From Promethearchaeota archaeon (GTDB lineage: Archaea > Asgardarchaeota > Lokiarchaeia > Sigyniarchaeales > SOKP01), in NCBI GenBank assembly GCA_019058015.1, contig JAHLWH010000117.1, forward strand, positions 1 through 41,471: 41,471 bases of DNA, given 5' to 3'. Under the pieces are notes generated by a model, which saw nothing but the letters and a program-made list of their open reading frames with translations, was not told the DNA's origin and did not search any database. Shown here piece by piece: positions 1 through 20,599 of this stretch (positions are counted from its first letter, which is position 1; each line of letters starts with the position of its first letter). The position numbers and the translations under genes are program-made.

Positions 1-1
1 A

Positions 2-3000
2 TTAAAAGATGAATTATCAGAATTGGATGGAGAATTATCTGAATTGGAAGATATATCTTCATATGAATTGAAAGAAACTCCAGTTATTCAAGATATGTTA
101 GAAGTTGTATTATCAGAATTAGATAGAGAATTATCAGAAATAGATGAGATAATCTCAAGCGAACTTCAAGAAGCTCCGATTATTCAAGAGTTGTTAGAAG
201 TTGAGTTATCTGAATTAGATGGAGAATTATCGGAAATAAAAGATATATCCTCAAGCGATTTTCAAGATTGTAAAATTATTCAAGACATAGCAAGAGAAGA
301 AATAAAAGATGAATTAATGGAATTAGATAATGAGTCATGGGATATTACAGATATGTATTCAAGTGAATTTGTAGATCTCTCAAATACTCAATATAGCTTA
401 GAAGAGGACTCTTTGGAAATTTCAAATGTTATAGATATCATAAATGTGCATAACAAGACTCTTGGACAAAACTATATTGGAGAACCTCAAATAGAAAACG
501 TATATGAAGAGGGGAATGAAAATGAGATTAACTATGATTTAAGTATAGATAAAAATAATCAAGAGGCATCAGAACAAGAATTATCGTTAATAGGAAAGGA
601 AAGTGGAGAAGAAAGTAAAGAAATTACGGCTACTAAATCTTCCACAACTTCAACAGATCAGAAAGAAAATCAAAAAGATACTAAAGAAGAGGAACAAGTA
701 TCGGAGCAAGAGAAAGAAAACCAAATGGATATGAATTATAATAGAACGGGTTTTACTGACCAAACACTCAATTTAAAGCAGAGGTTGAGGAGAGAGTTTG
801 GGGGTTATATTGATCAAAGAAAGAATTTGGATGAAAGGTTGAGGAAGGAATTTGGGAGTCAGGTTGAGGATAAAGAACAAGATATCCAAAAAGATGTGCC
901 GGAACAAGAATTATCGTTAAAAGAAAAGGAAAGTGGAGAAGAAAGTAGAGAAATTACGGCTACCACATCTTCCACAACTTCCATAGAGCAGAAAAAAAAC
1001 CAAGAAGATGATAAAGAATCGGAATTAACTTCAGAGCGGAATGAGGAAAGTCATAACAACAATGATATTAAAGATCTAGAAAAAGATTCGGAGAATTTAA
1101 ATAAAAAAACAGAAGAAGAGGTAAAATTTAAAGGAGAAGAATCAGAAGATTTGGAAGATCTTATTGATAAAGCTATAGAAGAATTTAAGATTTTAAAAGA
1201 TCCAAAATTGAAAGAAATGATAAAAAATTATGATGGTATTGCCTATAAGGGAAATCATTTTACTAAGATATTTATAAAATTTATTAAAGATCAAGATAAT
1301 GATGCACTAACTAAAGAAGAGAAAGATAATTTAGTAAAAAGTATAGAAGAATTTAACAAAAACAAAAGTTTAGATAATCTCCTTAAACATTACATAAGAT
1401 ATACTAAACTTTCACAGTCGAAAATACTTAAAAAATTAAAAGATATGAATTTAAAAACATCCCCTTATACATTAACAAATATCTCCCATAAGATTTTAAC
1501 ACGGGAAAAATATAAAAAGAGATTCCCAAAGCCACCTAATATATCCAATGAGCAACGAGAGGGCATAATAAAAGCAGGTCGCTCTGAGAATCCTTGCTCT
1601 TTAGAGGATATTGCAGTTGAATTTGGAGGAGCATATTCTAATGTCAGAGATATAATAATAAAGGTTTTGGGAGAGAAAGTATACCACAAGAAATTTCCGA
1701 AGCCCCAGGTATCCGATGAGCAGCGAGTGGGCATAATAAAAGCCGGTCGTTCCGAGAACCCAGGCTCTTTCGACGATATTGCAGATGAATTTGGAGTGTC
1801 GTCTGGTACTGCTAGAAAGATAATAAAAAAAGACTTGGAAAAGAAAGTATACCAAAAAAAATTCCATAGAGAAATTCTCGATGAGCAACGAGAAGATATT
1901 ATAAAAGCAGGTCGCTCCGAAGAACCTGATCCTATATACAAAATTGCAGAAACATGGGGAGTATCTCGGCGTACTGCAACTGATATTATAAGAGAAGACT
2001 TGGGAAAAGATGAATTCGACAGAAAATTCAATAGAGAAATAAGCGATGAGCAACGAGAGGGCATAATAAAAGCCGGTCATTCCGAAGAACCTGACTCTAT
2101 AAAAAAGATTGCAGAAACATGGGGAGTACCTCCAGGTACTGCAATTGATATTATAAAAAATAATTTGGGAGATAAAGTATATCATATGAAGTTTCCGAGA
2201 TCTGAGGATTGGGTATCTGATGAGCAACGAGAAGGCATAATAATAGCCGGTCGCTTAGAAAAACCAAATGGTATAAGCTACATTGCTGTCGAGTGGAAGG
2301 TAGGTCCTAATACTGCTTACAAAATTATACGAAATGACTTAGGAGAAAAAGAATTCAATAAGAAATTTCTTAATGATATACCCCAATTAATAGGGCATGA
2401 GAATCATAAATTAATTGAAAAAATAGCCACGCAAGATTTTGATGAAAAAAGGAAAAAATTTCCGGATGTTCCAATACTCGTTTCAGAGCCCCCAATTTAT
2501 ACTAAAAATAATAAACATTGCGATAATGCATTTAAAAACGATAAAAAATATCTACAAAAACTTCTAAAAGACAGAATCGCTAAAGAATTAAAGATTGATC
2601 CTAAAAAATTAGATCACATTAAAGTTGTGATTTTTGATTATACCAGTTGGCTACACAAAGCTAATCTCATAAAAAAGATTGAGAAATATCAACATTCTGA
2701 AATTATTTTTTTTATTGTCGGAACGTATTGGTTTCAAAGCTGGATTGGTCGAGTTAAGAGTCTCCCTAAAGATAAAAGGATTAAATATCCCGAAAATATT
2801 CGTATTATTAGATGGGATCTTTTTGCCGATTTATTAAATCTGAGTAATGATAATCGGAAGCGATTTAAGGAAATTATTAAATTAACTAGATTAAAAGATT
2901 TAGAAACCTTGAGAAGGCTTAATGAACAAAATAATTATAAATTGCACCGCTTAAAAAAGTCAAAAGCTAGAATAAAAGGGTATAAAAGCAAATTAGATGC

Positions 3001-3019
3001 ATTTTTATCGAAAATTTAA
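2..3019 (+). CDS. Giant modular protein (5' truncated): acidic 32-aa repeats, low-complexity linker, 5 tandem HTH modules, C-terminal putative PD-(D/E)xK nuclease-like domain
   Basis: Frame is open from nt 2 (LKDELSE|LDGE), so TTG at 23 is probably internal. HTH-like repeats 'SxxDIAxEFGVSxxTARKII'; C-terminal G-x3-H..E, E-x-x-I, CD, IFDYT motifs. Confidence 0.7.
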   Translation, partial: LKDELSELDGELSELEDISSYELKETPVIQDMLEVVLSELDRELSEIDEIISSELQEAPIIQELLEVELSELDGELSEIKDISSSDFQDCKIIQDIAREEIKDELMELDNESWDITDMYSSEFVDLSNTQYSLEEDSLEISNVIDIINVHNKTLGQNYIGEPQIENVYEEGNENEINYDLSIDKNNQEASEQELSLIGKESGEESKEITATKSSTTSTDQKENQKDTKEEEQVSEQEKENQMDMNYNRTGFTDQTLNLKQRLRREFGGYIDQRKNLDERLRKEFGSQVEDKEQDIQKDVPEQELSLKEKESGEESREITATTSSTTSIEQKKNQEDDKESELTSERNEESHNNNDIKDLEKDSENLNKKTEEEVKFKGEESEDLEDLIDKAIEEFKILKDPKLKEMIKNYDGIAYKGNHFTKIFIKFIKDQDNDALTKEEKDNLVKSIEEFNKNKSLDNLLKHYIRYTKLSQSKILKKLKDMNLKTSPYTLTNISHKILTREKYKKRFPKPPNISNEQREGIIKAGRSENPCSLEDIAVEFGGAYSNVRDIIIKVLGEKVYHKKFPKPQVSDEQRVGIIKAGRSENPGSFDDIADEFGVSSGTARKIIKKDLEKKVYQKKFHREILDEQREDIIKAGRSEEPDPIYKIAETWGVSRRTATDIIREDLGKDEFDRKFNREISDEQREGIIKAGHSEEPDSIKKIAETWGVPPGTAIDIIKNNLGDKVYHMKFPRSEDWVSDEQREGIIIAGRLEKPNGISYIAVEWKVGPNTAYKIIRNDLGEKEFNKKFLNDIPQLIGHENHKLIEKIATQDFDEKRKKFPDVPILVSEPPIYTKNNKHCDNAFKNDKKYLQKLLKDRIAKELKIDPKKLDHIKVVIFDYTSWLHKANLIKKIEKYQHSEIIFFIVGTYWFQSWIGRVKSLPKDKRIKYPENIRIIRWDLFADLLNLSNDNRKRFKEIIKLTRLKDLETLRRLNEQNNYKLHRLKKSKARIKGYKSKLDAFLSKI
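11..370 (+). repeat. ~96-bp (32-aa) tandem coding repeat ELSELDGELSEIxDISS..IIQ
   Basis: Units start at 11, 107, 203 and a degenerate one at 311. Confidence 0.85.
572..1018 (+). repeat. ~117-bp direct repeat (572-688 and 902-1018) encoding EQELSLxxKESGEESxEITATxSSTTS
   Basis: Near-identical DNA gaacaagaattatcgtta...ggaaagtggagaagaaagta...tcttccacaacttc, 330 bp apart. Confidence 0.9.
1544..2380 (+). repeat. Five tandem 165-174 bp repeats each encoding an HTH module
   Basis: Units start at 1544, 1712, 1877, 2042, 2216 with conserved (g/a)atgagca(a/g)cga..ataaaagc.ggtc; protein consensus SDEQREGIIKAGRSExP. Confidence 0.95.
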
Positions 3020-3489
3020 AAAACCAATGGTATTCTTTAACAGACAATAGTTATAAGAAATTCTTTTAAAATTATATAATGCAAGTACAAGCAGACCACA
3101 CTTTTTTTTTTGACAGATACCTGTAAAACAGTTGCAAATATTTAACTAATTCTAAAAAATTTTTTTAAGTAAAAACTTAAATTCATGGAAAGAATTAACG
3201 GGTTTATATAATGAAAAATTATTGAAAATGCCTATTGTGTGTAATTTTAATAAGCAAGATTTGTCAAGGAAATTTAATTATTTAGATTTTTTGGAGAAAA
3301 TTCATTATAGAAAATATAGATCATTTGCGTATTTTAAAACAATAGCTCTTGTGGGAGATGGTATAGTAACCTCTTTTAAAAAAATAATTGAACTTATATT
3401 TCCAGGATTAATAATTAGTCAAATATCAACTTAAAGTCAAAATTTCTAAAAGAGACAAGAAATTGATGCTTATTAATAAGAGAGATTTT

Positions 3490-6400
3490 TCATAAAATTT
3501 CTGGAATATCTCTTCCACAAAATTTGCAAAATTTATCATTAATATTTATTTTTTGGCCACAATAAGGACAGAATTTAAAGTCTTTTAATCCAATATCATT
3601 CTCAAATTTATAATTATTAATCTCGTACTTATCTACATAATAATTCTCATAAGTTTTAACTAAATCACGCGTTTTTCTAGATAATAAAAGAAATGATATG
3701 ATAATTGTCGCGATTACTCCTATAATTATTAGAATTATGACAATTAAATAAGGATCAATTCGATCATCATTTATTTTCATAACAATGTAGAAAGTATCAG
3801 AACCCCCTTCAGAATCTTGAACAGTTATGTAAAATAAACCATAATAGTTACTATACGATGCTACAGATTTTTGGATTGCTCCATTATCTGAAGTATAATT
3901 CAAGAATTCAGGTATTAAAAATACACCTATGAAATTTTTAGAATCCGAATTATAATTTAACTCCAAGAATACAAAATTTGAGGGGGATAAAAGGCTAAGA
4001 ACACCATCAGTTGATGATGTGACAATAAAAAAATTTATAAAAACTCTCAATTCATCTTCATTATCCTCATAATCAACTAACTCACCCGTTTTTATTAGGA
4101 AATTATAGTTTGTTAAAAGAAAAGTATTTTGAATAGTTAAACTTTCATTAACTATAGTTTCATTAAAATAAATATATGATCCGTAAAAAGATTCAGTTAA
4201 ATTAATAATAGGGTCATTATTTTCGATTTTAAAAAATAGACGATTAGAATAAGGATTAGAATAATTTTTGGACGATTTTGGGATTAAATAAAAAAAAGCA
4301 TAACCTGTTGTATCTTCAATGCTTGGAATGAAAGTGTATTTATATTTATTTGAACTTTCTTCTTCAAAATTTAATGTTTTATTAATTGTATTTCTTGAAT
4401 TAAAAAAGGAACTAGGATGAATTCCCATATAAGCAGTTAAATTAATATTAGATTTATTTAAGTTGATAATTATTTTATTATATATCCCACTTTCCCGAGT
4501 TATGTTAGAGTATTCTATTGAATAATTAATGATTTCTGGGATTTTAGATTTATTAGGATGAAGTAATTCAATCCTCTTTTCAAAAATTTCACTATTAATT
4601 TTTACAGAAATATCAATTATATAATTTTCATAACTAAAATTTGATAATTTTATTGAATCATTATAATAAACACCGTATCCCAAATTTAGTAATGTAATAT
4701 TAATAATTTTATTTGTTACTGGATTTTCGATAGATGCATTAAGACTGATCCCATTAATTAAATTAGCAATTCCCACTTCAGTAGTCTGATTTTTAATAAA
4801 TACAGATAAAGATGTAGTATTAGTGAAAACCCTTTCTGATTTTAATCCGAGATTGATAGTTAAATCATCTTCAGGAAGTAAAAATCTAATAGCATTCTGT
4901 AGTAACGTCGAATGAGCTGATGAATAAGAAACATCATCATAAAATTCATCTAATAGCCAATACAAATCTCCAAACGCTAAGAATTTACCTTTCCCTTCAT
5001 CAGATTTATCACAACTTGCTACAACCGAAGAATTATATAATTGAGCTTGGGATACTCCATTTCCATAAACATTAAACGTACAACCGGTGAGCCAATAAAA
5101 TTTAGAGACTCCTTTAAATATTGAAGAATTTTCTAAAAAATTTGTTACTTCATTAGAATCTAATATCGCGCCAATTCCTACATGAGTTGAATTTTCAATA
5201 TTTTCTCCTTTTATTTGAATTCCAACATTTAATTGATCAAATAAAAAATTAATATTTTCTATGCATATTTCTTGATATCTTGTTCCTAGAAATAGAATAT
5301 TACCTCCCGTTTCAAAGTATTCTTTTAAAGTTTTTATTTCTGATTGACTATAAGGTAAAATTGGGTTTTGCAAAATAATTAAGTCATAAAAACTTAATTT
5401 TTCTGAACTTAGAATAGAGTTATTTAAGGAAGAATTATATTTAGGTGTCCATTTGTCCATAAAATATATAGGGGAACAATTTAGATTTGAAACATCTTTC
5501 ATAGATCTATAAAAATCAATTTGTTTGAAAGAGTATTCCGGAAACCAATCATTTAAACCATGAAATGACTCATATAATATTTTAAATTCCGGTATTTTTT
5601 TTTTAATTTCTATTTCTATCTGATCTATTATTTCTCCTGTAGTCTCATCAGACATGTTTATCGTGATTTTTCCAACTCCTGGAGTAGCATTAAAAAGAAT
5701 TTCAAGATAGATTGATAAAAAATCAACTCCGTGAGAGTTAAAATTTATTTTTTCCTTATCTAATTCTATCCTAATATCAGGAAGTTGATTAGATATTTGA
5801 AATGAAATATTTCTTGTGATTCCTGATAAAACCGTTAGATTAAAAATTTGTTTATCGCCTGGATAATTAAGAAGATCAAATGGTTGTATTGGAAGTTTAT
5901 TGGGATAAATAGTTGTAATATTGTTTACATCTTTAGTCGAAGAATTTATCTCATGTAATAAATCAATAGATTTTGATATATTGATAATTCCGGCACCGAT
6001 TTTCAGGGTTTCATGGTTATTAGTTTTATATGCTCCTTTCAATATTGCAATTTTTGCTGCTTCTGGTTTTAAATCAGGAAAGGCTTGTAATAATAAAGCT
6101 AAAGCACCCGAGACCATTGGACATGCCATAGAAGTTCCACTGAGTGGATAATAATCATAAGAACCGGGATAATTAATATAATCTCCAAGATATTTCTTTT
6201 TATTGGAGATTATTGAATCAATAGCTTCTGTAGAGATAATATTTTCTCCTGGAGCGCATATACTTGGGTAATATTGATAAGTATTTGTTGGGCCCCTGCT
6301 ACTAAATGTAGATAAATTTCCATTTTTATCAACCGAACCTACAGCGATGGCATTTACACTTGTTGCCGGGATTCCGCCAGAATAATAACTGGGTCCATCA

Positions 6401-7491
6401 TTTCCTGCTGATACAACACATAAAACACCTTGATTAGTCGCATTTGTTATAGCTAATGTAATTGGATCATATACTTCTGGATATGGAGCTCCAAAGCTCA
6501 TACTAATTATTTGAGCACCATTTTCTACAGACCATTCAATAGCTTTTAGAATATCAGTATCTTTTAGACTTCCTGATGAATTACCAGCTTTAACATTCAA
6601 AAAATTTACATTTGGAGCCACGCCTCGATATTTTCCTGAGGAAATTCCTCCATCTCCTCCTATAATTCCTGCAACATGTGTTCCATGTCCATTTCTATCT
6701 ATAAAATCAGAATTATCTGTTTCTTCTCCCTTAGATGCAAAATTTATTTGCTTTATTATTCTTGTTTGAAAATCGGGATGAGGGTAAATTCCAGAATCAA
6801 TAATAGATACATTAATTCCTGTACCGTCATATGTTAAATTTTCAGCACCAATTGATTGTAGCCACCAATTATTCCAGTCCACTGGATTTAAATTATTTTG
6901 TTGAATTTTCACATTATTTGGAATTGTATAAATATTTTCCTTAAAGATTTTGATGATTTCATTGGATTCTTCAATTAAAGGTTTTAATTGTATTAATTCT
7001 GAGCTCTGACATTCCAAATATATCCCTGGAACAATATTAAATTCAAAAATTATGTTAAAATTGCTAAAAAGCTTTATTATTTCTCTTAATCTTTCTTCCT
7101 TTGACAATTCTTCATTAAAAATGATTATTATTGGAACTTTTTCATCAAGTAATTTTTCTTTGTTTTTAAGTAAGGATTTTTGTAGATTAATACTATATTT
7201 AGATAACCTTTCCAACTCTAATTGATCATATTCTTTACTTCTGATGTATTTTTTATAAATATTATCATTAAATTCATTTGATTGCAAAAAAAAATCATTA
7301 CCTGCATCTTTTGCAATATTATAATCAAATTCTTTCTGATTTATGTTTAATAGATTATGTGATAGTGCTAAAAAAAAGATATTTGTAAATAAAAACAAAT
7401 AGATAAATGTCATATAAGCAATATTATAATAATATTTAACCAAAATTGAATTCACGTAATAGTTATGATATTTTTTATTATAAGATCTCAA
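3490..7491 (-). CDS. Membrane-anchored subtilisin-like S8 serine protease with GATase-like/DUF4350-type domain, C-terminal TM helix and cytoplasmic zinc ribbon
   Basis: Triad motifs IIDSG, GHGTHVAG, GTSMACP; oxyanion SAGN; N-terminal hydrophobic segment; TM LIVIILIIIGVIATIIISFLLL; CPYCG..CKFCG. Confidence 0.92.
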   Translation of the reverse strand: MRSYNKKYHNYYVNSILVKYYYNIAYMTFIYLFLFTNIFFLALSHNLLNINQKEFDYNIAKDAGNDFFLQSNEFNDNIYKKYIRSKEYDQLELERLSKYSINLQKSLLKNKEKLLDEKVPIIIIFNEELSKEERLREIIKLFSNFNIIFEFNIVPGIYLECQSSELIQLKPLIEESNEIIKIFKENIYTIPNNVKIQQNNLNPVDWNNWWLQSIGAENLTYDGTGINVSIIDSGIYPHPDFQTRIIKQINFASKGEETDNSDFIDRNGHGTHVAGIIGGDGGISSGKYRGVAPNVNFLNVKAGNSSGSLKDTDILKAIEWSVENGAQIISMSFGAPYPEVYDPITLAITNATNQGVLCVVSAGNDGPSYYSGGIPATSVNAIAVGSVDKNGNLSTFSSRGPTNTYQYYPSICAPGENIISTEAIDSIISNKKKYLGDYINYPGSYDYYPLSGTSMACPMVSGALALLLQAFPDLKPEAAKIAILKGAYKTNNHETLKIGAGIINISKSIDLLHEINSSTKDVNNITTIYPNKLPIQPFDLLNYPGDKQIFNLTVLSGITRNISFQISNQLPDIRIELDKEKINFNSHGVDFLSIYLEILFNATPGVGKITINMSDETTGEIIDQIEIEIKKKIPEFKILYESFHGLNDWFPEYSFKQIDFYRSMKDVSNLNCSPIYFMDKWTPKYNSSLNNSILSSEKLSFYDLIILQNPILPYSQSEIKTLKEYFETGGNILFLGTRYQEICIENINFLFDQLNVGIQIKGENIENSTHVGIGAILDSNEVTNFLENSSIFKGVSKFYWLTGCTFNVYGNGVSQAQLYNSSVVASCDKSDEGKGKFLAFGDLYWLLDEFYDDVSYSSAHSTLLQNAIRFLLPEDDLTINLGLKSERVFTNTTSLSVFIKNQTTEVGIANLINGISLNASIENPVTNKIINITLLNLGYGVYYNDSIKLSNFSYENYIIDISVKINSEIFEKRIELLHPNKSKIPEIINYSIEYSNITRESGIYNKIIINLNKSNINLTAYMGIHPSSFFNSRNTINKTLNFEEESSNKYKYTFIPSIEDTTGYAFFYLIPKSSKNYSNPYSNRLFFKIENNDPIINLTESFYGSYIYFNETIVNESLTIQNTFLLTNYNFLIKTGELVDYEDNEDELRVFINFFIVTSSTDGVLSLLSPSNFVFLELNYNSDSKNFIGVFLIPEFLNYTSDNGAIQKSVASYSNYYGLFYITVQDSEGGSDTFYIVMKINDDRIDPYLIVIILIIIGVIATIIISFLLLSRKTRDLVKTYENYYVDKYEINNYKFENDIGLKDFKFCPYCGQKININDKFCKFCGRDIPEIL

Positions 7492-19543: not shown

Positions 19544-20599
19544 TTGTATCATAATTCAAATTTTGAAAGAAAAATCTCTAATAAGTTACTTACTTTTTGC
19601 CCAGAATGTGGTTGCGAAATAATTAATTCTTATTTTGAAAGAGTTTGCATAAATTGTGGACTTGTTATAGGTGAAATTTTCAGTGATCATTCATATATAA
19701 TGAATAATACGATTGAATCATATAATTTATCAAATAAGCAATATGTTGCGTTAGGAGAGCGTATTAATTTTATTGGTGGATTGGGAACTTGTCTAGATTT
19801 TGAGAATTCTTATTATCTTAAGGATAAAAACGGTAATTTATTACCTCCAAATAGTCAAAAATTATTTCGTCGTTTAAAAAAAAATTATTCAAAATTTATT
19901 AGAATTAAAAATTTTGAAACAGAATATAGAATTTTAAAAATTCTAAATAATGTTATTTCGTATTTAAATTTAAATAATAATATTAGAAATAATGCGGCAT
20001 ATTTTTATAGGAAAATAATAAAATCTGCTCCTAGAGTAATTAACAATATTTCACTCATCGCTTTTTGTCTATTTTATTCATTAAGACGGGGAAATGATAG
20101 TGTTCCACTATCAATAAAAGAGATTTCCGAGATTTTTCAAATAATTGGTCACCGTGTCACACCTCGATTAATAATTCGTGATGGAATCATGTATAAAAAA
20201 TATCTTGATAAGAAGGATTCCTCCCTTAAAAGTGAAAAATATCTACCAAGATTAATTAATGAAATTGTTACTCATAAATCTTTAAAAGAACGTTTAATTA
20301 AGAAGGAAATTAAATGGAATCATAGTAAATATAAGAAGGAATTAACAATAATGTCAGAATATTTACTAAAGAATCTTAATCGAAAACAAAGAGGTGGAAG
20401 AAATCCATTAATTCTGGCGGGAGCAATAATTTATTGTGCAGATAAGATTTTAGCAATTAAAAATTCTCAAAAAAAAATTTTAACGCAAAAATTGATATCG
20501 TCAGCTACAAAAATTGCAGAATATTCAATTAGAGATCACTATGTATCATTATTAAAACCTATCTTTCTTACAAAAAGTTTAGAGGGGATTCCCAAGTAG
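19544..20599 (+). CDS. Divergent TFIIB/TFB-family protein
   Basis: Zn ribbon CPECG..CINCGLVI; cyclin-fold repeats (GRNPLILAGAIIY, LTQKLIS..EYSIRDHY). Confidence 0.85.
   Translation: MYHNSNFERKISNKLLTFCPECGCEIINSYFERVCINCGLVIGEIFSDHSYIMNNTIESYNLSNKQYVALGERINFIGGLGTCLDFENSYYLKDKNGNLLPPNSQKLFRRLKKNYSKFIRIKNFETEYRILKILNNVISYLNLNNNIRNNAAYFYRKIIKSAPRVINNISLIAFCLFYSLRRGNDSVPLSIKEISEIFQIIGHRVTPRLIIRDGIMYKKYLDKKDSSLKSEKYLPRLINEIVTHKSLKERLIKKEIKWNHSKYKKELTIMSEYLLKNLNRKQRGGRNPLILAGAIIYCADKILAIKNSQKKILTQKLISSATKIAEYSIRDHYVSLLKPIFLTKSLEGIPK

What the first reader, a model, noticed from the sequence alone, without database searches (positions are those of the whole stretch)
1544..3019. Tandem HTH array with variable recognition helices fused to a putative nuclease: a possible modular, TALE/ZF-like DNA-targeting nuclease
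Seen: five 55-58 aa units share a fixed scaffold (SDEQREGIIKAGRSExP..IA.EFGV..TA..II...LG...F), but the start of the predicted recognition helix differs in each unit (AYSNVRD, SSGTARK, SRRTATD, PPGTAID, GPNTAYK). A degenerate sixth unit precedes them. Directly after the array is a domain with GHENH..E, E-P-P-I, CD and IFDYT. Known: in HTH proteins these positions read bases, and PD-(D/E)xK nucleases have an E..D..(D/E)xK core. Inference: a repeat array whose specificity could change by duplication or shuffling, delivering a nuclease (homing-endonuclease-, defence- or toxin-like). The repeat DNA looks GC-richer than the flanking chromosome.
Basis: partly seen in the sequence, partly recalled or inferred. 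Interest (0 to 1): 0.85.

Follow-up and report, generated by a model that had tools for sequence, protein, structure and literature searches.

The report
Mobile HTH-array nuclease gene in Asgard
An Asgard archaeon carries a strain-specific, movable gene whose protein strings five small DNA-reading units in front of a new restriction-enzyme-like domain, so it is probably a selfish or defensive site-specific DNA cutter, though no activity has been tested.

Summary
Gene 2..3019(+), cut at its 5' end by the contig start, encodes five 55-58-aa helix-turn-helix units (Pfam HTH_23/HTH_7 above threshold). They precede a 216-aa C-terminal domain (CTD) with no Pfam, NCBIfam, PADLOC or PHROG family.

- **Fold:** the CTD model has pLDDT 93. 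Its structural neighbours are mostly PD-(D/E)xK nucleases, at modest Z (up to 6.1).
- **Active site:** An acidic triad is kept in 43 of 44 HTH-bearing homologs and lost in all 18 membrane-anchored ones.
- **Array variation:** homologs carry 1-7 units, unit order differs between paralogs, and one relative has a fresh tandem duplicate. Nonsynonymous change concentrates in helix 2-turn-helix 3 (dN/dS about 1.2-1.4, against 0.15 in helix 1).
- **Mobility:** all five close-clade copies examined sit at different sites that lack the gene in same-genus genomes.
- **Range:** the CTD was found in only one family of Promethearchaeota.

Best reading: a free-standing, homing-type modular endonuclease. A TALE-like code is unproven. 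This scan noted the same family earlier in another genome.

The parts
2..3019 (+). HTH-array/CTD gene. 1005 codons are seen, with the stop at 3017-3019. The 5' end is missing because the contig starts inside the gene.
   Evidence: Open frame. The missing start (MSQLREQ...) lies at the end of own contig C177, downstream of the syntenic left flank. The full-length ortholog in a same-genus genome is 1286 aa.
2..1141 (+). Acidic, low-complexity N-terminal region (aa 1-380, net charge -68). It includes 96-nt tandem repeats at nt 2-285.
   Evidence: No Pfam family. Shared only with the close paralogs on C45 and C163.
1142..1525 (+). Pre-array domain, read as helical from its sequence only and not modelled (aa 381-508). 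It ends in a degenerate, weakly recognisable sixth HTH-like unit (about aa 455-508).
   Evidence: 68-72% identical in paralogs C45 and C163.
1526..1696 (+). HTH unit 1 (aa 509-565)
   Evidence: Unit HMM E 4.7e-23; alignment.
1697..1864 (+). HTH unit 2 (aa 566-621)
   Evidence: Unit HMM E 2.5e-25. The best stretches of Pfam Sigma70_r4 and HTH_11, both below their cutoffs, lie here. Modelled.
1865..2029 (+). HTH unit 3 (aa 622-676)
   Evidence: Unit HMM E 4.9e-24. Best Pfam HTH_23 stretch at aa 644-664. Modelled.
2030..2194 (+). HTH unit 4 (aa 677-731)
   Evidence: Unit HMM E 1.6e-24. 77% identical to unit 3 of paralog C45.
2195..2368 (+). HTH unit 5 (aa 732-789)
   Evidence: Unit HMM E 1.2e-20. 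Best Pfam HTH_7 stretch at aa 751-776.
2369..3016 (+). C-terminal PD-(D/E)xK-like domain (CTD, aa 790-1005). Candidate active-site codons: H802 (nt 2405-2407), E829 (2486-2488), D841 (2522-2524), D879 (2636-2638), T881 (2642-2644), K892 (2675-2677), K895 (2684-2686), Q897 (2690-2692).
   Evidence: AlphaFold pLDDT 93.1, pTM 0.89. Structural neighbours. Conservation.
3020..3162 (.). 143-nt non-coding tail of the inserted DNA. Same-genus genomes have no counterpart at this site.
   Evidence: Homology to G144 and G040 starts at window 3163. Homology between element copies stops at the stop codon.
3163..3538 (+). Right copy of an imperfect (80%) direct repeat of about 380 nt that brackets the insertion. 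It is a displaced 3' end of a small-GTPase gene; the remnant ORF is at 3222-3434.
   Evidence: The left copy is C177:1087-706. G144 and G040 have one copy and no insert. A metagenome contig (run X7) reads from 3173 straight into GTPase-like coding sequence.

Best explanation
The gene encodes a modular, site-specific DNA endonuclease. It behaves as a free-standing selfish gene of the homing-endonuclease type.

**Shown here:**
- Five tri-helical HTH units sit in tandem in front of a lineage-specific domain with a restriction-endonuclease-like fold.
- That domain keeps a site H-E-D-(D/E)xT-N-K-K-Y-Q in all soluble, HTH-bearing relatives.
- The gene travels as a single-gene block of about 4-5 kb. 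It occupies different chromosomal sites in closely related genomes.
- Unit number and unit order vary between copies.
- Replacement changes pile up in the HTH motif.

**Inferred:**
- The array lies along a long, asymmetric DNA site, each unit reading a few base pairs through helix 3 and the start of helix 2.
- The tethered CTD cuts nearby with a metal bound by E829, D841 and D879. K892 or K895 on the following helix stands in for the missing canonical lysine.
- A break in a genome that lacks the gene is repaired from a copy that has it, which spreads the gene together with some flanking DNA.
- Gain, loss, reordering and mutation of units retarget the enzyme to new sites.
- The acidic N-terminal tail (net charge -68) may mask the DNA-binding parts until needed. 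This last point is pure speculation.
For: **HTH units.**
- Pfam HTH_23 (E 1.2e-7) and HTH_7 (E 2.6e-5) both score above their curated cutoffs.
- The model of two units shows helices at 7-18, 25-32 and 36-46, plus a short helix at 49-56.
- Its weak Foldseek neighbours are double-HTH DNA binders: AraC type, DUX4 double homeodomain and Tc3.

**CTD fold.**
- pLDDT 93.1. The element order is long helix, strands, helix, strand, strand.
- VIA-align against 48,161 chains gave 23 chains with Z of 5 or more. By their titles, 33 of the 50 listed rows are restriction enzymes, other nucleases or endonuclease-like proteins. The best is McrC, 6hz4_M: Z 6.1, rmsd 3.6 over 115 residues.
- The Foldseek top rows are MspJI, Bax1, HindIII and Cfr10I, though none reaches E 0.001.

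**Active site.** I classed 105 CTD proteins: 99 database representatives and 6 own-genome paralogs.
- 59 keep (E/D)45-D57-(D/E)95, including 43 of the 44 with HTH units.
- All 18 with a predicted membrane helix have lost it (NHI, NNL, YNV and similar), together with H18, K108 and K111.
- This all-or-none loss is what an enzyme site and its inactivated relatives look like.
- 5 of 10 intact, HTH-less members that I scanned carry an RNase_T exonuclease domain, and one carries TFIIB repeats.

**Array plasticity.**
- 1-7 units per protein in 44 of 105 proteins.
- 13 of 15 close-clade units resemble a unit in another gene more than any neighbour in their own gene.
- Order is permuted: the last unit of the G144 gene matches the first unit of C163 at 81%, and its first unit matches the C163 last unit at 75%.
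- G144 has two adjacent units that are 98% identical.

**Selection pattern.**
- Pooled Nei-Gojobori dN/dS for columns 33-39 is 1.16 over all 17 rows and 1.42 over the 11 rows outside the window gene. Helix 1 gives 0.15-0.17 and the rest 0.42.
- The ten highest of 48 sliding 7-column windows all lie within columns 24-39.

**Mobility.**
- The window's downstream flank is contiguous with the C177 left flank in G144 and G040, with no gene between them.
- The G144 copy sits in a 4.97-kb insert whose site is empty in the own genome. It is bracketed by a 15-nt duplication.
- Own copies on C28, C45 and C163 lie next to flanks that are 90-98% identical in relatives, while no CTD match lies at those places in G144 or G040.
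- 5 of the 50 listed CTD matches in related genomes carry internal stops.
- Flanks next to the insert are more diverged from G144 than the opposite or overall flank: 83% against 93% overall for the window copy, and 85% against 93% at the C45 site. This would fit co-transfer of flanking DNA.
Against: - No cleavage, binding or target site has been shown.
- Structural similarity is modest. Z is at most 6.1, below the tool's own caution line of 8, and no Foldseek match reaches E 0.001.
- The canonical lysine of (D/E)xK is a threonine in 91 of 103 aligned sequences. The substitute lysines are assigned from sequence only, because model coordinates could not be inspected.
- The array is net neutral (-2), and its helix 1 is acidic and nearly invariant. 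This is unusual for a DNA-coating array and could point to a protein partner.
- The copies differ more from each other (83-88% DNA identity in the CTD) than the flanks differ between species (90-95%). Movement is therefore not a recent burst within one genome.
- Flanking duplications of 15, about 106 and about 380 nt, and none at a fourth site, are not what classical homing leaves behind.
- The dN/dS figures pool non-independent pairs of paralogous repeats, rest on few codons and are near saturation. They are not a formal test.
Confidence: 0.45

Rival explanations
1. It is a stand-alone defence nuclease, restriction-like or innate-immunity-like. The HTH array recognises invading DNA, for example virus-specific sequences, and the CTD destroys it. 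The gene moves between strains as defence genes commonly do, and its reading surface diversifies in an arms race.
For: - Strain-variable presence and several paralogs per genome (9 CTD matches in the own genome).
- Fast change in the HTH motif.
- Many structural neighbours are defence nucleases: McrC, Can2, Card1-type, Cap4, NucC, Avs3 and LmuA.
Against: - No PADLOC family matches except a weak HTH hit (mad1, E 4.7e-4).
- The insertion holds a single gene, with no methyltransferase, sensor or partner gene.
- Neighbours are housekeeping genes: S8 protease, FBP aldolase, ABCE1-like ATPase and LysRS.
- Nothing explains how the organism's own DNA would be spared.
Confidence: 0.2
2. It is a non-catalytic DNA- or protein-binding factor, such as a chromatin, transcription or scaffold protein. 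The endonuclease-like domain would serve only for binding or oligomerisation, as in the membrane-anchored relatives.
For: - The canonical catalytic lysine is absent.
- The same domain clearly survives without its charged residues on the cytoplasmic tails of 18 membrane proteins, so it has a non-enzymatic use.
- The array is net neutral and sits behind a long acidic disordered tail.
- One relative carries TFIIB repeats.
Against: - H, E, D, D/E, K and K are kept almost without exception in the HTH-bearing branch: 43 of 44 keep an all-acid triad. This is hard to explain without catalysis.
- A housekeeping regulator would not be missing from syntenic sites in sister genomes or decay to pseudogenes.
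Confidence: 0.13
3. The protein is itself the recombinase of its own element. It would be a one-gene transposon-like unit: the nuclease makes staggered cuts at a site chosen by the array, and the block is pasted in, leaving target duplications.
For: - Direct duplications of target DNA bracket three of the four resolved insertions: 15 nt, about 106 nt and about 380 nt.
- The insertion holds a single gene.
- Endonuclease-like domains with N-terminal HTH/Myb modules occur in R2 elements, which are among the structural neighbours at Z 5.2-5.7.
Against: - Copies share no conserved ends. Homology begins about 310 nt (window copy) to 660 nt upstream of the start codon and stops at the stop codon, with different DNA beyond.
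- No inverted repeats were seen, though no dedicated scan for them was run.
- The duplications vary about 25-fold in length, and two are only about 80% identical, so they are not fresh target-site duplications.
- No strand-transfer or reverse-transcriptase domain is present.
Confidence: 0.08

Closest known systems
EDxHD homing endonucleases such as I-Bth0305I (two N-terminal NUMOD-2/HTH motifs plus a C-terminal Vsr-like nuclease). PMC3239194: passages found with 'NUMOD' and 'Vsr' were read.
   Same: - The domain order matches: tandem HTH-type DNA-binding modules, then a C-terminal nuclease of the restriction-endonuclease-like superfamily.
- Both are selfish, mobile genes.
- A long target read by loosely linked modules is expected in both.
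   Different: - This protein has five units here and 1-7 in the family, instead of two.
- No sequence match to Vsr/EDxHD or NUMOD models was found.
- It is free-standing in intergenic or gene-end positions, not inside a group I intron.
- It is archaeal (Promethearchaeota).
- It carries a very long acidic N-terminal tail.
Free-standing phage homing endonucleases with modular DNA-binding tails (I-TevI/Seg-type GIY-YIG and I-HmuI-type HNH enzymes with NUMODs). The description is recalled, and also appears in the passages of PMC3239194 read.
   Same: - A catalytic domain is tethered to a string of small DNA-binding modules.
- Presence/absence polymorphism between close relatives.
- Possible co-transfer of flanking DNA.
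   Different: - The catalytic fold is different (PD-(D/E)xK-like, not GIY-YIG or HNH).
- The DNA-binding modules are N-terminal.
- The host is a cellular archaeal chromosome rather than a phage.
Type IIS and related restriction enzymes (FokI-like: a separate recognition domain plus a PD-(D/E)xK cleavage domain). Recalled; it is also the comparison chosen in earlier scan note e1-5453278.
   Same: - A recognition module is separate from a restriction-endonuclease-like cleavage module.
- Structural neighbours include many type II enzymes.
   Different: - No cognate methyltransferase is present.
- Recognition is by a repeat array rather than one compact domain.
- There is no sequence-level membership.
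TALE and zinc-finger arrays and the engineered TALEN/ZFN nucleases (recalled).
   Same: - Tandem DNA-reading units are joined to a nuclease.
- Unit number varies.
- Variation is concentrated on the predicted reading surface.
   Different: - Units are only 44-65% identical and differ in helix 2, the turn, helix 3 and the linkers. They are not near-identical repeats with a two-residue code.
- No evidence exists for a fixed number of bases read per unit.

Membership tests
PD-(D/E)xK (restriction-endonuclease-like) superfamily | Core fold: helix, three strands, helix, strand, with a mixed sheet | tested here: met
   - The AlphaFold model (pLDDT 93.1) has elements in this order: helix 8-35, short strand 43-44, strand 58-61, strand 91-97, helix 102-112, strand 117-123, strand 149-153.
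- By their titles, 33 of the 50 listed VIA rows are nucleases or endonuclease-like proteins, at Z 4.5-6.1.
- Caution: Z is below 8, which the tool says can reflect only a common arrangement.
PD-(D/E)xK (restriction-endonuclease-like) superfamily | Catalytic signature: D at the start of strand 2 and (D/E)xK in strand 3 | tested here: inconclusive
   - D57 is present in 74 of 94 sequences and directly precedes strand 58-61.
- Position 95 is D in 62 and E in 10 of 103 sequences, and lies in strand 91-97.
- The third position is T in 91 of 103, not K.
- K108 (72 of 104) and K111 (83 of 104) are conserved on the next helix.
PD-(D/E)xK (restriction-endonuclease-like) superfamily | Sequence membership in a curated family | tested here: not met
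   - The CTD has no Pfam, NCBIfam or PADLOC match, and only a PHROG hit at E 0.056.
- A profile search of PDB sequences gave only hemerythrin at E above 1.
- ESM Atlas leads to PDDEXK_3 and PDDEXK_11 clusters score only 0.85-0.87.
PD-(D/E)xK (restriction-endonuclease-like) superfamily | Metal-dependent phosphodiester cleavage | not testable with these tools
   Needs a bench assay.
Tri-helical helix-turn-helix (Pfam HTH_23 / HTH_7, homeodomain-like clan) | Profile match above the curated cutoff | tested here: met
   HTH_23 scores 31.7 bits against a cutoff of 24.6. HTH_7 scores 24.7 against 23.8.
Tri-helical helix-turn-helix (Pfam HTH_23 / HTH_7, homeodomain-like clan) | Three-helix fold with helix 2-turn-helix 3 | tested here: met
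   The model of units 2 and 3 has pLDDT 83.5, with helices at 7-18, 25-32 and 36-46 and the same pattern in the second unit. Foldseek neighbours are double-HTH DNA binders, but none is significant; the best E is 0.049.
Tri-helical helix-turn-helix (Pfam HTH_23 / HTH_7, homeodomain-like clan) | Sequence-specific DNA binding | not testable with these tools
   Needs SELEX, DAP-seq or EMSA.
Homing endonuclease genes (free-standing type) | Presence/absence polymorphism of the gene at otherwise syntenic sites in close relatives | tested here: met
   Five copies (four in the own genome, one in G144) sit at five different sites. None of these sites holds the gene in the other genome compared. A metagenome contig reads across the window's empty site.
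Homing endonuclease genes (free-standing type) | The enzyme cuts the allele that lacks the gene, and repair copies the gene in | not testable with these tools
   Needs cleavage assays on empty-site DNA. The higher divergence of the adjacent flank (83-85% against 93%) is only suggestive.
Homing endonuclease genes (free-standing type) | Catalytic domain belongs to a recognised homing family (LAGLIDADG, GIY-YIG, HNH, His-Cys box, I-Ssp6803I-like PD-(D/E)xK, EDxHD) | tested here: not met
   No profile of any of these matches the protein.
TALE / zinc-finger-type modular code | Near-identical tandem repeats that differ essentially at a few specificity residues | tested here: not met
   Units are 44-65% identical. 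The variable columns are spread over helix 2, the turn, helix 3 and the linker, with the highest entropy at columns 34, 24, 38 and 42.
TALE / zinc-finger-type modular code | Each unit reads a fixed number of bases independently of its neighbours | not testable with these tools
   Needs binding-site mapping and unit-swap experiments.
Restriction-modification or other known defence system | Match to a known defence protein model, and a partner gene or defence-island context | tested here: not met
   PADLOC gave only a weak HTH hit. The insert holds a single gene. Neighbours are housekeeping genes.
DNA transposon / insertion sequence | Conserved element ends (inverted repeats), fixed-length target duplication, and a transposase or integrase | tested here: not met
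   Homology between copies covers only the gene and 310-660 nt upstream. Duplications are 15, about 106 and about 380 nt, and 3 nt or fewer at the fourth site. No transposase or integrase family matches.

The most novel reading that the evidence does not exclude
These genes may be a natural counterpart of engineered ZFN/TALEN nucleases. In this reading, a selfish archaeal endonuclease sets its target by a string of semi-independent HTH units. The units are duplicated, deleted and reordered to jump to new chromosomal sites, so the unit repertoire of the family would form a readable, recombinable DNA-recognition alphabet. The same nuclease fold would have been domesticated, with its active site erased, as a cytoplasmic signalling or adaptor module on Asgard surface proteins.
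Probability: 0.15. Interest if true: 0.85.

Novelty: new variant of a known kind. Interest (0 to 1): 0.62.

Why it matters
**What would be new if the nuclease reading holds:**
- It adds a previously unnamed branch of the restriction-endonuclease-like superfamily. In the sample searched, this branch was found only in one family of Promethearchaeota (Loki-type Asgard archaea): 19 of 40 genomes of that family, against 0 of 160 genomes of 26 other families of the phylum.
- It is a new architecture for mobile site-specific nucleases, with up to seven tandem HTH units.

**What it explains:**
- It accounts for part of the strain-level gene-content variation and the assembly breaks in these genomes.

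**What it makes testable:**
- It offers a natural system for asking whether HTH units can be combined modularly to read long DNA sites.
- The split between catalytic-looking soluble members and active-site-dead copies on the tails of large surface proteins is a separate, testable lead on Asgard cell-surface signalling.

I found no paper describing the family. This rests on three full-text searches, for which I saw only the listings and abstract starts. I also ran term look-ups inside PMC8813620. Supplementary files were not consulted, and they could hold domain tables that I did not see.

Tried and rejected
- **CTD dimer (complex prediction, two copies of the CTD).** No answer (score 0.00), so it carries no evidence either way.
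- **RNA evidence.** No RNA holder was listed among 20 public runs, so expression could not be assessed.
- **Foldseek on the CTD model.** Nothing at E 0.001 or better against PDB or the viral library BFVD. The best viral row is an unnamed protein at E 3.2e-3.
- **Foldseek on the two-unit HTH model.** Nothing at E 0.001 or better.
- **Profile search of PDB sequences with the CTD alignment.** Only hemerythrin at E above 1, which I take as chance.
- **ESM Atlas.** Scores are below 0.9, so they are leads only.
- **The search for related loci.** The 29-row alignment failed for lack of a conserved stretch. The single-protein scan gave five close loci that served only to name the taxon.
- **Polymorphic-toxin reading.** I considered it because some relatives have signal peptides and LamG/Ig ectodomains. 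I rejected it for three reasons. Those members have a membrane helix 60-200 residues before the CTD, which puts the CTD in the cytoplasm. They lack the acidic triad. No immunity-like gene follows the window gene or its G144 ortholog.
- **Shared front end with other nuclease types in this genome.** Here tblastn found the N-terminal region only in the close paralogs, plus one weak hit on C149.
- **Long flanking repeats at the G144 insertion.** Gapless and BLAST searches found only the 15-nt duplication.
- **330-nt skips in short metagenome contigs.** Run X6 skips 1749 to 2080 and run X1 skips 1714 to 2045, which is two units in frame. These may be alleles or paralogs with fewer units. They could equally be assembly artefacts in repeats, so I did not count them as evidence.
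- **Loci fetched but not analysed.** L037 and L038 (G189, G168).

Full report
**What is there**

The window is a whole contig (G000:C111) of a 3.84-Mb, 283-contig genome. An open frame runs from the first bases to the stop at 3017-3019, giving 1005 codons. Its 5' end is missing only because the contig starts inside the gene.

The protein has four parts:
- **Acidic N-terminus (aa 1-380).** It is low-complexity with net charge -68 and contains 96-nt tandem repeats at nt 2-285.
- **Pre-array domain (aa 381-508).** It looks helical from the sequence but was not modelled.
- **HTH array (aa 509-789, nt 1526-2368).** Five tandem units of 55-58 residues.
- **C-terminal domain, CTD (aa 790-1005).** 216 residues.

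The five units are 44-65% identical to each other. Tandem Repeats Finder detects them with periods of 165-168 nt. A unit HMM matches each at E 1e-20 to 1e-25.

The HMM domain table lists five units for this protein. The matching stretch of a paralog hits only the C-terminal half of the model, at E 0.002.

The array is GC-richer than the genome: 38.6% against 29.4%, at the 98th percentile. The excess lies mostly in codon positions 1 and 2, so it reflects amino-acid composition.

**The units are helix-turn-helix domains**

Pfam HTH_23 (E 1.2e-7, 31.7 bits against a cutoff of 24.6) and HTH_7 (24.7 against 23.8) both pass their curated cutoffs.

I modelled units 2 and 3 with AlphaFold, using an alignment of 15 unit pairs from the window, four own-genome paralogs and a same-genus ortholog. 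The model has pLDDT 83.5 and pTM 0.50. Each unit shows three helices and a short fourth helix over the conserved (Y/F)xKKF tail.

Foldseek found no significant match. The best weak rows are proteins with two HTH domains: AraC type, the DUX4 double homeodomain, tandem engrailed homeodomains and the Tc3 transposase.

**The C-terminal domain is a new, divergent restriction-endonuclease-like domain**

It matches no Pfam, NCBIfam or PADLOC family, and only one PHROG at E 0.056. A profile search of all PDB sequences found nothing credible.

An exhaustive HMMER search of 1.84 billion representative proteins found 99 relatives at E up to 0.001, 60 at E up to 1e-10 and 12 at E up to 1e-30. In nearly all of them the domain lies at or near the C-terminus, in proteins of 75 to 3037 residues.

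With a 41-row alignment, AlphaFold gave a confident model with pLDDT 93.1 and pTM 0.89. The element order is:
- a long helix (8-35)
- a short strand (43-44)
- strands 58-61 and 91-97
- a helix (102-112)
- strands 117-123 and 149-153
- a helical tail

Foldseek against PDB gave no match at E 0.001 or better. Its top rows are MspJI, Bax1, HindIII and Cfr10I.

VIA-align against 48,161 chains gave 23 chains at Z of 5 or more and none at 8 or more. By their titles, 33 of the 50 listed rows are restriction enzymes, other nucleases or endonuclease-like proteins. The best is McrC: Z 6.1, rmsd 3.6 over 115 residues. From recall, several other rows (R2 protein, Avs3, Cap4, Prp8, the orthomyxovirus PA N-terminus) also contain such a domain.

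The Z values are modest, and the tool warns that values under 8 can reflect a common arrangement. The case rests on the consistency of the list and on the active-site pattern below.

**The active-site pattern is the strongest argument for catalysis**

I aligned 105 CTD proteins: 99 representatives plus six own-genome paralogs. In domain numbering (protein number minus 784), the conserved polar positions are:

| Position | Conservation |
|---|---|
| H18 | 65 of 80 |
| E45 | 59 of 93 |
| D57 | 74 of 94 |
| D/E95 | 72 of 103 |
| T97 | 91 of 103 |
| N104 | not tabulated here |
| K108 | 72 of 104 |
| K111 | 83 of 104 |
| Q113 | 87 of 104 |
| N148 | 99 of 106 |

D57 sits immediately before the second main strand. 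D95-x-T97 sits in the third. These are the canonical places for the D and the (D/E)xK of this superfamily, but with threonine where the lysine should be.

The family splits cleanly:
- 59 proteins keep an acidic residue at positions 45, 57 and 95.
- 43 of the 44 proteins that also carry HTH units of this type are among them. 58 of the 59 have no predicted membrane helix.
- All 18 proteins with a predicted membrane helix have replaced the triad (NHI, NNL, YNV, DNI and similar). In most of them H18, K108 and K111 are replaced as well. The prediction is crude: a Kyte-Doolittle window of 19 residues at 1.8 or more.
- 13 proteins are fragments that do not cover all three triad positions.
- 15 others deviate at one or more positions.

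The five long relatives I scanned carry Laminin_G_3, DUF2341 or Ig-like ectodomains. All five also have a predicted membrane helix, which lies about 110-200 residues before the CTD. This places the dead CTD on the cytoplasmic side.

Among ten HTH-less proteins with an intact site, five carry an RNase_T-type exonuclease domain and one carries TFIIB repeats. Over 91 relatives, the commonest companion families are HTH families, RNase_T (6 proteins) and a treble-clef zinc finger (5 proteins).

Joint loss of all charged positions in one branch, and their near-invariance in the branch that carries nucleic-acid modules, is the signature of an enzyme site and its inactivated relatives. I could not check that the residues cluster in space, because model coordinates are not exposed.

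Of the 105 proteins, 44 carry 1 to 7 units. The own genome has six paralogs with the CTD behind HTH units:
- C111, the window gene: five units
- C45: one plus three units, with an internal duplication
- C163: two units
- C222: at least four units
- C36: at least three units
- C28: truncated by a contig end

The 1286-residue ortholog in a 10-contig same-genus genome (G144) has four units. Two adjacent ones are 98% identical, so this is a fresh tandem duplication.

Among 15 units of the close clade, 13 resemble a unit in another gene more than any unit in their own gene. Order is not conserved. The last unit of the G144 gene matches the first unit of C163 at 81%, and its first unit matches the C163 last unit at 75%.

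Column entropy over 15 distinct close-clade units peaks at four places:
- column 34, the first residue of helix 3: 3.19 bits
- column 24, the second residue of helix 2: 2.92 bits
- column 38: 2.33 bits
- column 42: 2.06 bits

Columns 34, 38 and 42 are spaced i, i+4, i+8, so they lie on one face of helix 3. Helix 1 (SDEQREGIIKAGRSE) is almost invariant.

Pooled Nei-Gojobori estimates give these dN/dS values:

| Region | dN/dS |
|---|---|
| Same segment, the 11 rows outside the window gene | 1.42 |
| Helix 1 | 0.15-0.17 |
| All other columns | 0.42 |

The ten highest of 48 sliding seven-column windows all lie between columns 24 and 39. The pre-specified window ranks seventh. These figures pool non-independent comparisons and are close to saturation. 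They show where replacements accumulate but do not prove positive selection.

**The gene is a mobile, single-gene block**

*The window copy.*
- Its downstream flank, from nt 3163, is 93% identical to G144:C2:412395 onward and to G040:C27:138451 onward.
- In both relatives the DNA just upstream matches own contig C177.
- C177, read towards its end, continues into about 700 nt of other sequence. That sequence ends with the start of an HTH-CTD gene, MSQLREQTQDN....
- So in this genome the gene lies between two flanks that are directly adjacent in G144 and G040. The insert is C177:705-1, plus an assembly gap, plus window 1-3162.
- It is bracketed by an imperfect direct repeat of about 380 nt at 80% identity (C177:1087-706 and window 3163-3538). 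The repeat holds the 3' end of a small-GTPase gene. The left copy completes the gene, and the right copy is a remnant (ORF 3222-3434).

*Support from public metagenomes.*
- A contig of a marine-sediment run (X7) covers 3173-4200 and then reads into GTPase-like coding sequence instead of the nuclease gene.
- A contig of a salt-marsh run from another study (X5) bridges 2929-3231, which is the filled junction.

*The reverse case.*
- The G144 copy lies in a 4.97-kb insert (L036:5323-10292). Its flanks are adjacent on own contig C177 near position 19960, at 94.5-94.7% identity.
- A 15-nt duplication there includes the start codon of the downstream gene.

*The other three close copies of the own genome.*

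| Copy | Neighbouring flank | Identity of that flank in G144, G040 and G177 |
|---|---|---|
| C28 | starts 64 nt after the stop | 90-95% |
| C45 | starts about 45 nt after the stop | 90-98% |
| C163 | starts about 470 nt after the stop | 92-93% |

- No CTD match lies at those places in G144 or G040.
- Using G144 as the empty reference, the left flanks are on own contigs C26 (for C45), C9 (for C163) and C246 (for C28).
- The C45 site has an imperfect duplication of about 106 nt that includes the start of the downstream gene.
- The C163 site has none (3 nt or fewer).
- At the C28 site, G144 has a 497-residue CoA-ligase-like gene instead.

*What the copies share.*
- Copies share only the gene and 310-660 nt upstream of it. 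Homology ends at the stop codon.
- No inverted terminal repeats were seen in these comparisons, and no transposase or integrase is present.
- The CTD-coding parts of different copies are 83-88% identical, which is less than the flanks between species.
- Five of the 50 listed CTD matches in related genomes contain stop codons.
- Neighbouring genes in the window are ordinary: an S8 protease, FBP aldolase, an ABCE1-like ATPase and LysRS.

**Distribution**

With the CTD profile, 19 of 40 sampled genomes of the window's own family have a match at E up to 1e-5. None of 160 genomes from 26 other families of the phylum does. Genomes without a match are a sample, so this reads as 'not found in those searched'.

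Close relatives in named records are Promethearchaeota/Promethearchaeia MAGs. Where public sources name members, the name refers to other domains: 'DUF2341 domain-containing protein' and 'DNA polymerase III epsilon subunit-like protein'. Eight of the ten clusters I looked up carry no name at all.

**How it most likely works**

The best-supported reading is a free-standing, homing-type endonuclease. I give it 0.45. In this reading:
- The HTH array docks on a long asymmetric site.
- The tethered CTD cuts with a metal held by E829, D841 and D879.
- A lysine from the next helix (K892 or K895) replaces the missing canonical lysine.
- The resulting break promotes copying of the gene, with adjacent DNA, into genomes that lack it.
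- Changes in unit content retarget it.

The closest described architecture is the EDxHD family, represented by I-Bth0305I. It has two NUMOD-2/HTH motifs followed by a Vsr-like nuclease. In phage enzymes such as I-TevI and I-HmuI the NUMODs lie at the other end of the protein (PMC3239194, passages read).

Rival readings:
- a stand-alone defence nuclease (0.20)
- a non-catalytic DNA- or protein-binding factor (0.13)
- a one-gene transposon-like element whose protein does the pasting (0.08)

The variable, partly diverged target duplications (15, about 106 and about 380 nt, and none at one site) are not explained by any of these. The flank next to the insert is more diverged from G144 (83% and 85%) than the opposite or overall flank (93%). 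This suggests that donor DNA came in together with the gene.

**Relation to earlier notes of this scan**

A look-up by sequence showed that the same family was reported before on another genome (e1-5453278). That note described four HTH units with fast-changing surfaces, a new restriction-enzyme-like domain and a strain-specific 5-kb insertion. My tests on this DNA reached the same reading independently.

Other notes on this genome describe different modular nuclease genes (e1-2566043, e1-2415151). I found no sharing of this gene's N-terminal region with them.

**Limits**

- There is no bench evidence.
- The structural Z values are modest.
- I had no access to model coordinates.
- The membrane-helix prediction is crude.
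- The selection statistics are descriptive only.
- The literature check rests on three full-text searches seen as listings only, term look-ups in one further paper and no supplementary files.

Noticed in passing
Homologs P0037, P0092, P0048, P0057, P0093, P0040 and others (not in the window): Large proteins carry a copy of the same C-terminal domain on the cytoplasmic side, with every charged active-site residue replaced. The five scanned with Pfam have Laminin_G_3, DUF2341 or Ig-like ectodomains, and all have a predicted membrane helix. This looks like a domesticated, non-catalytic module of Asgard surface proteins.
   Followed up: partly
Homologs P0025, P0047, P0021, P0083, P0052: An intact-site CTD is followed by an RNase_T (DEDD) 3'-5' exonuclease domain. 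This would be an endonuclease-exonuclease fusion without HTH units. P0087 instead carries TFIIB cyclin repeats.
   Followed up: partly
window 3222-3434 (+) and own contig C177:1087-706: A 70-codon remnant of the 3' end of a small-GTPase gene lies just after the insert. An 80%-identical second copy completes the GTPase gene on the other side of the insert.
   Followed up: yes
window 3490-7491 (-): A 1333-residue S8 subtilase has a weak IFT52 GIFT-domain match (E 4.2e-7), a C-terminal membrane helix and a cytoplasmic zinc-ribbon tail.
   Followed up: no
L036:5554-5811 (-), also own contigs C26 and C246: An 85-codon ORF for a small hydrophobic protein lies in the 660 nt upstream of the nuclease gene in three element copies (G144, C26/C45, C246/C28). 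The window's copy lacks it. It could be a companion gene or only a conserved leader.
   Followed up: partly
L036:8901-9398 (G144:C2): Two adjacent HTH units of the ortholog are 98% identical in protein sequence. This is a very recent tandem duplication of one 168-nt unit.
   Followed up: yes
L050:928-2421 (G144:C5): Where the own genome has the C28 copy of the nuclease gene, G144 has a 497-residue gene instead. I read it from its sequence as CoA-ligase-like (ADP-forming acyl-CoA synthetase-like) and did not check this against profiles. At this site the element replaces a gene rather than simply inserting.
   Followed up: partly
window 1749-2080 and 1714-2045 (contigs of runs X6 and X1): Short metagenome contigs skip exactly 330 nt, which is two units in frame. 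These could be alleles or paralogs with two fewer units, or assembly artefacts in the repeats.
   Followed up: no
G040:C25:21969-22628; G168:C77; G030:C49; G135:C181; G177:C467: CTD copies in related genomes carry one to six internal stop codons. This suggests that members of the family decay.
   Followed up: no
own contigs C111, C28, C163, C45, C36, C222, C177, C26, C9, C246: Most contigs that hold a piece of this gene family end inside or next to it. The acidic N-terminal repeats and the HTH repeats are a recurrent cause of assembly breaks in this genome.
   Followed up: partly
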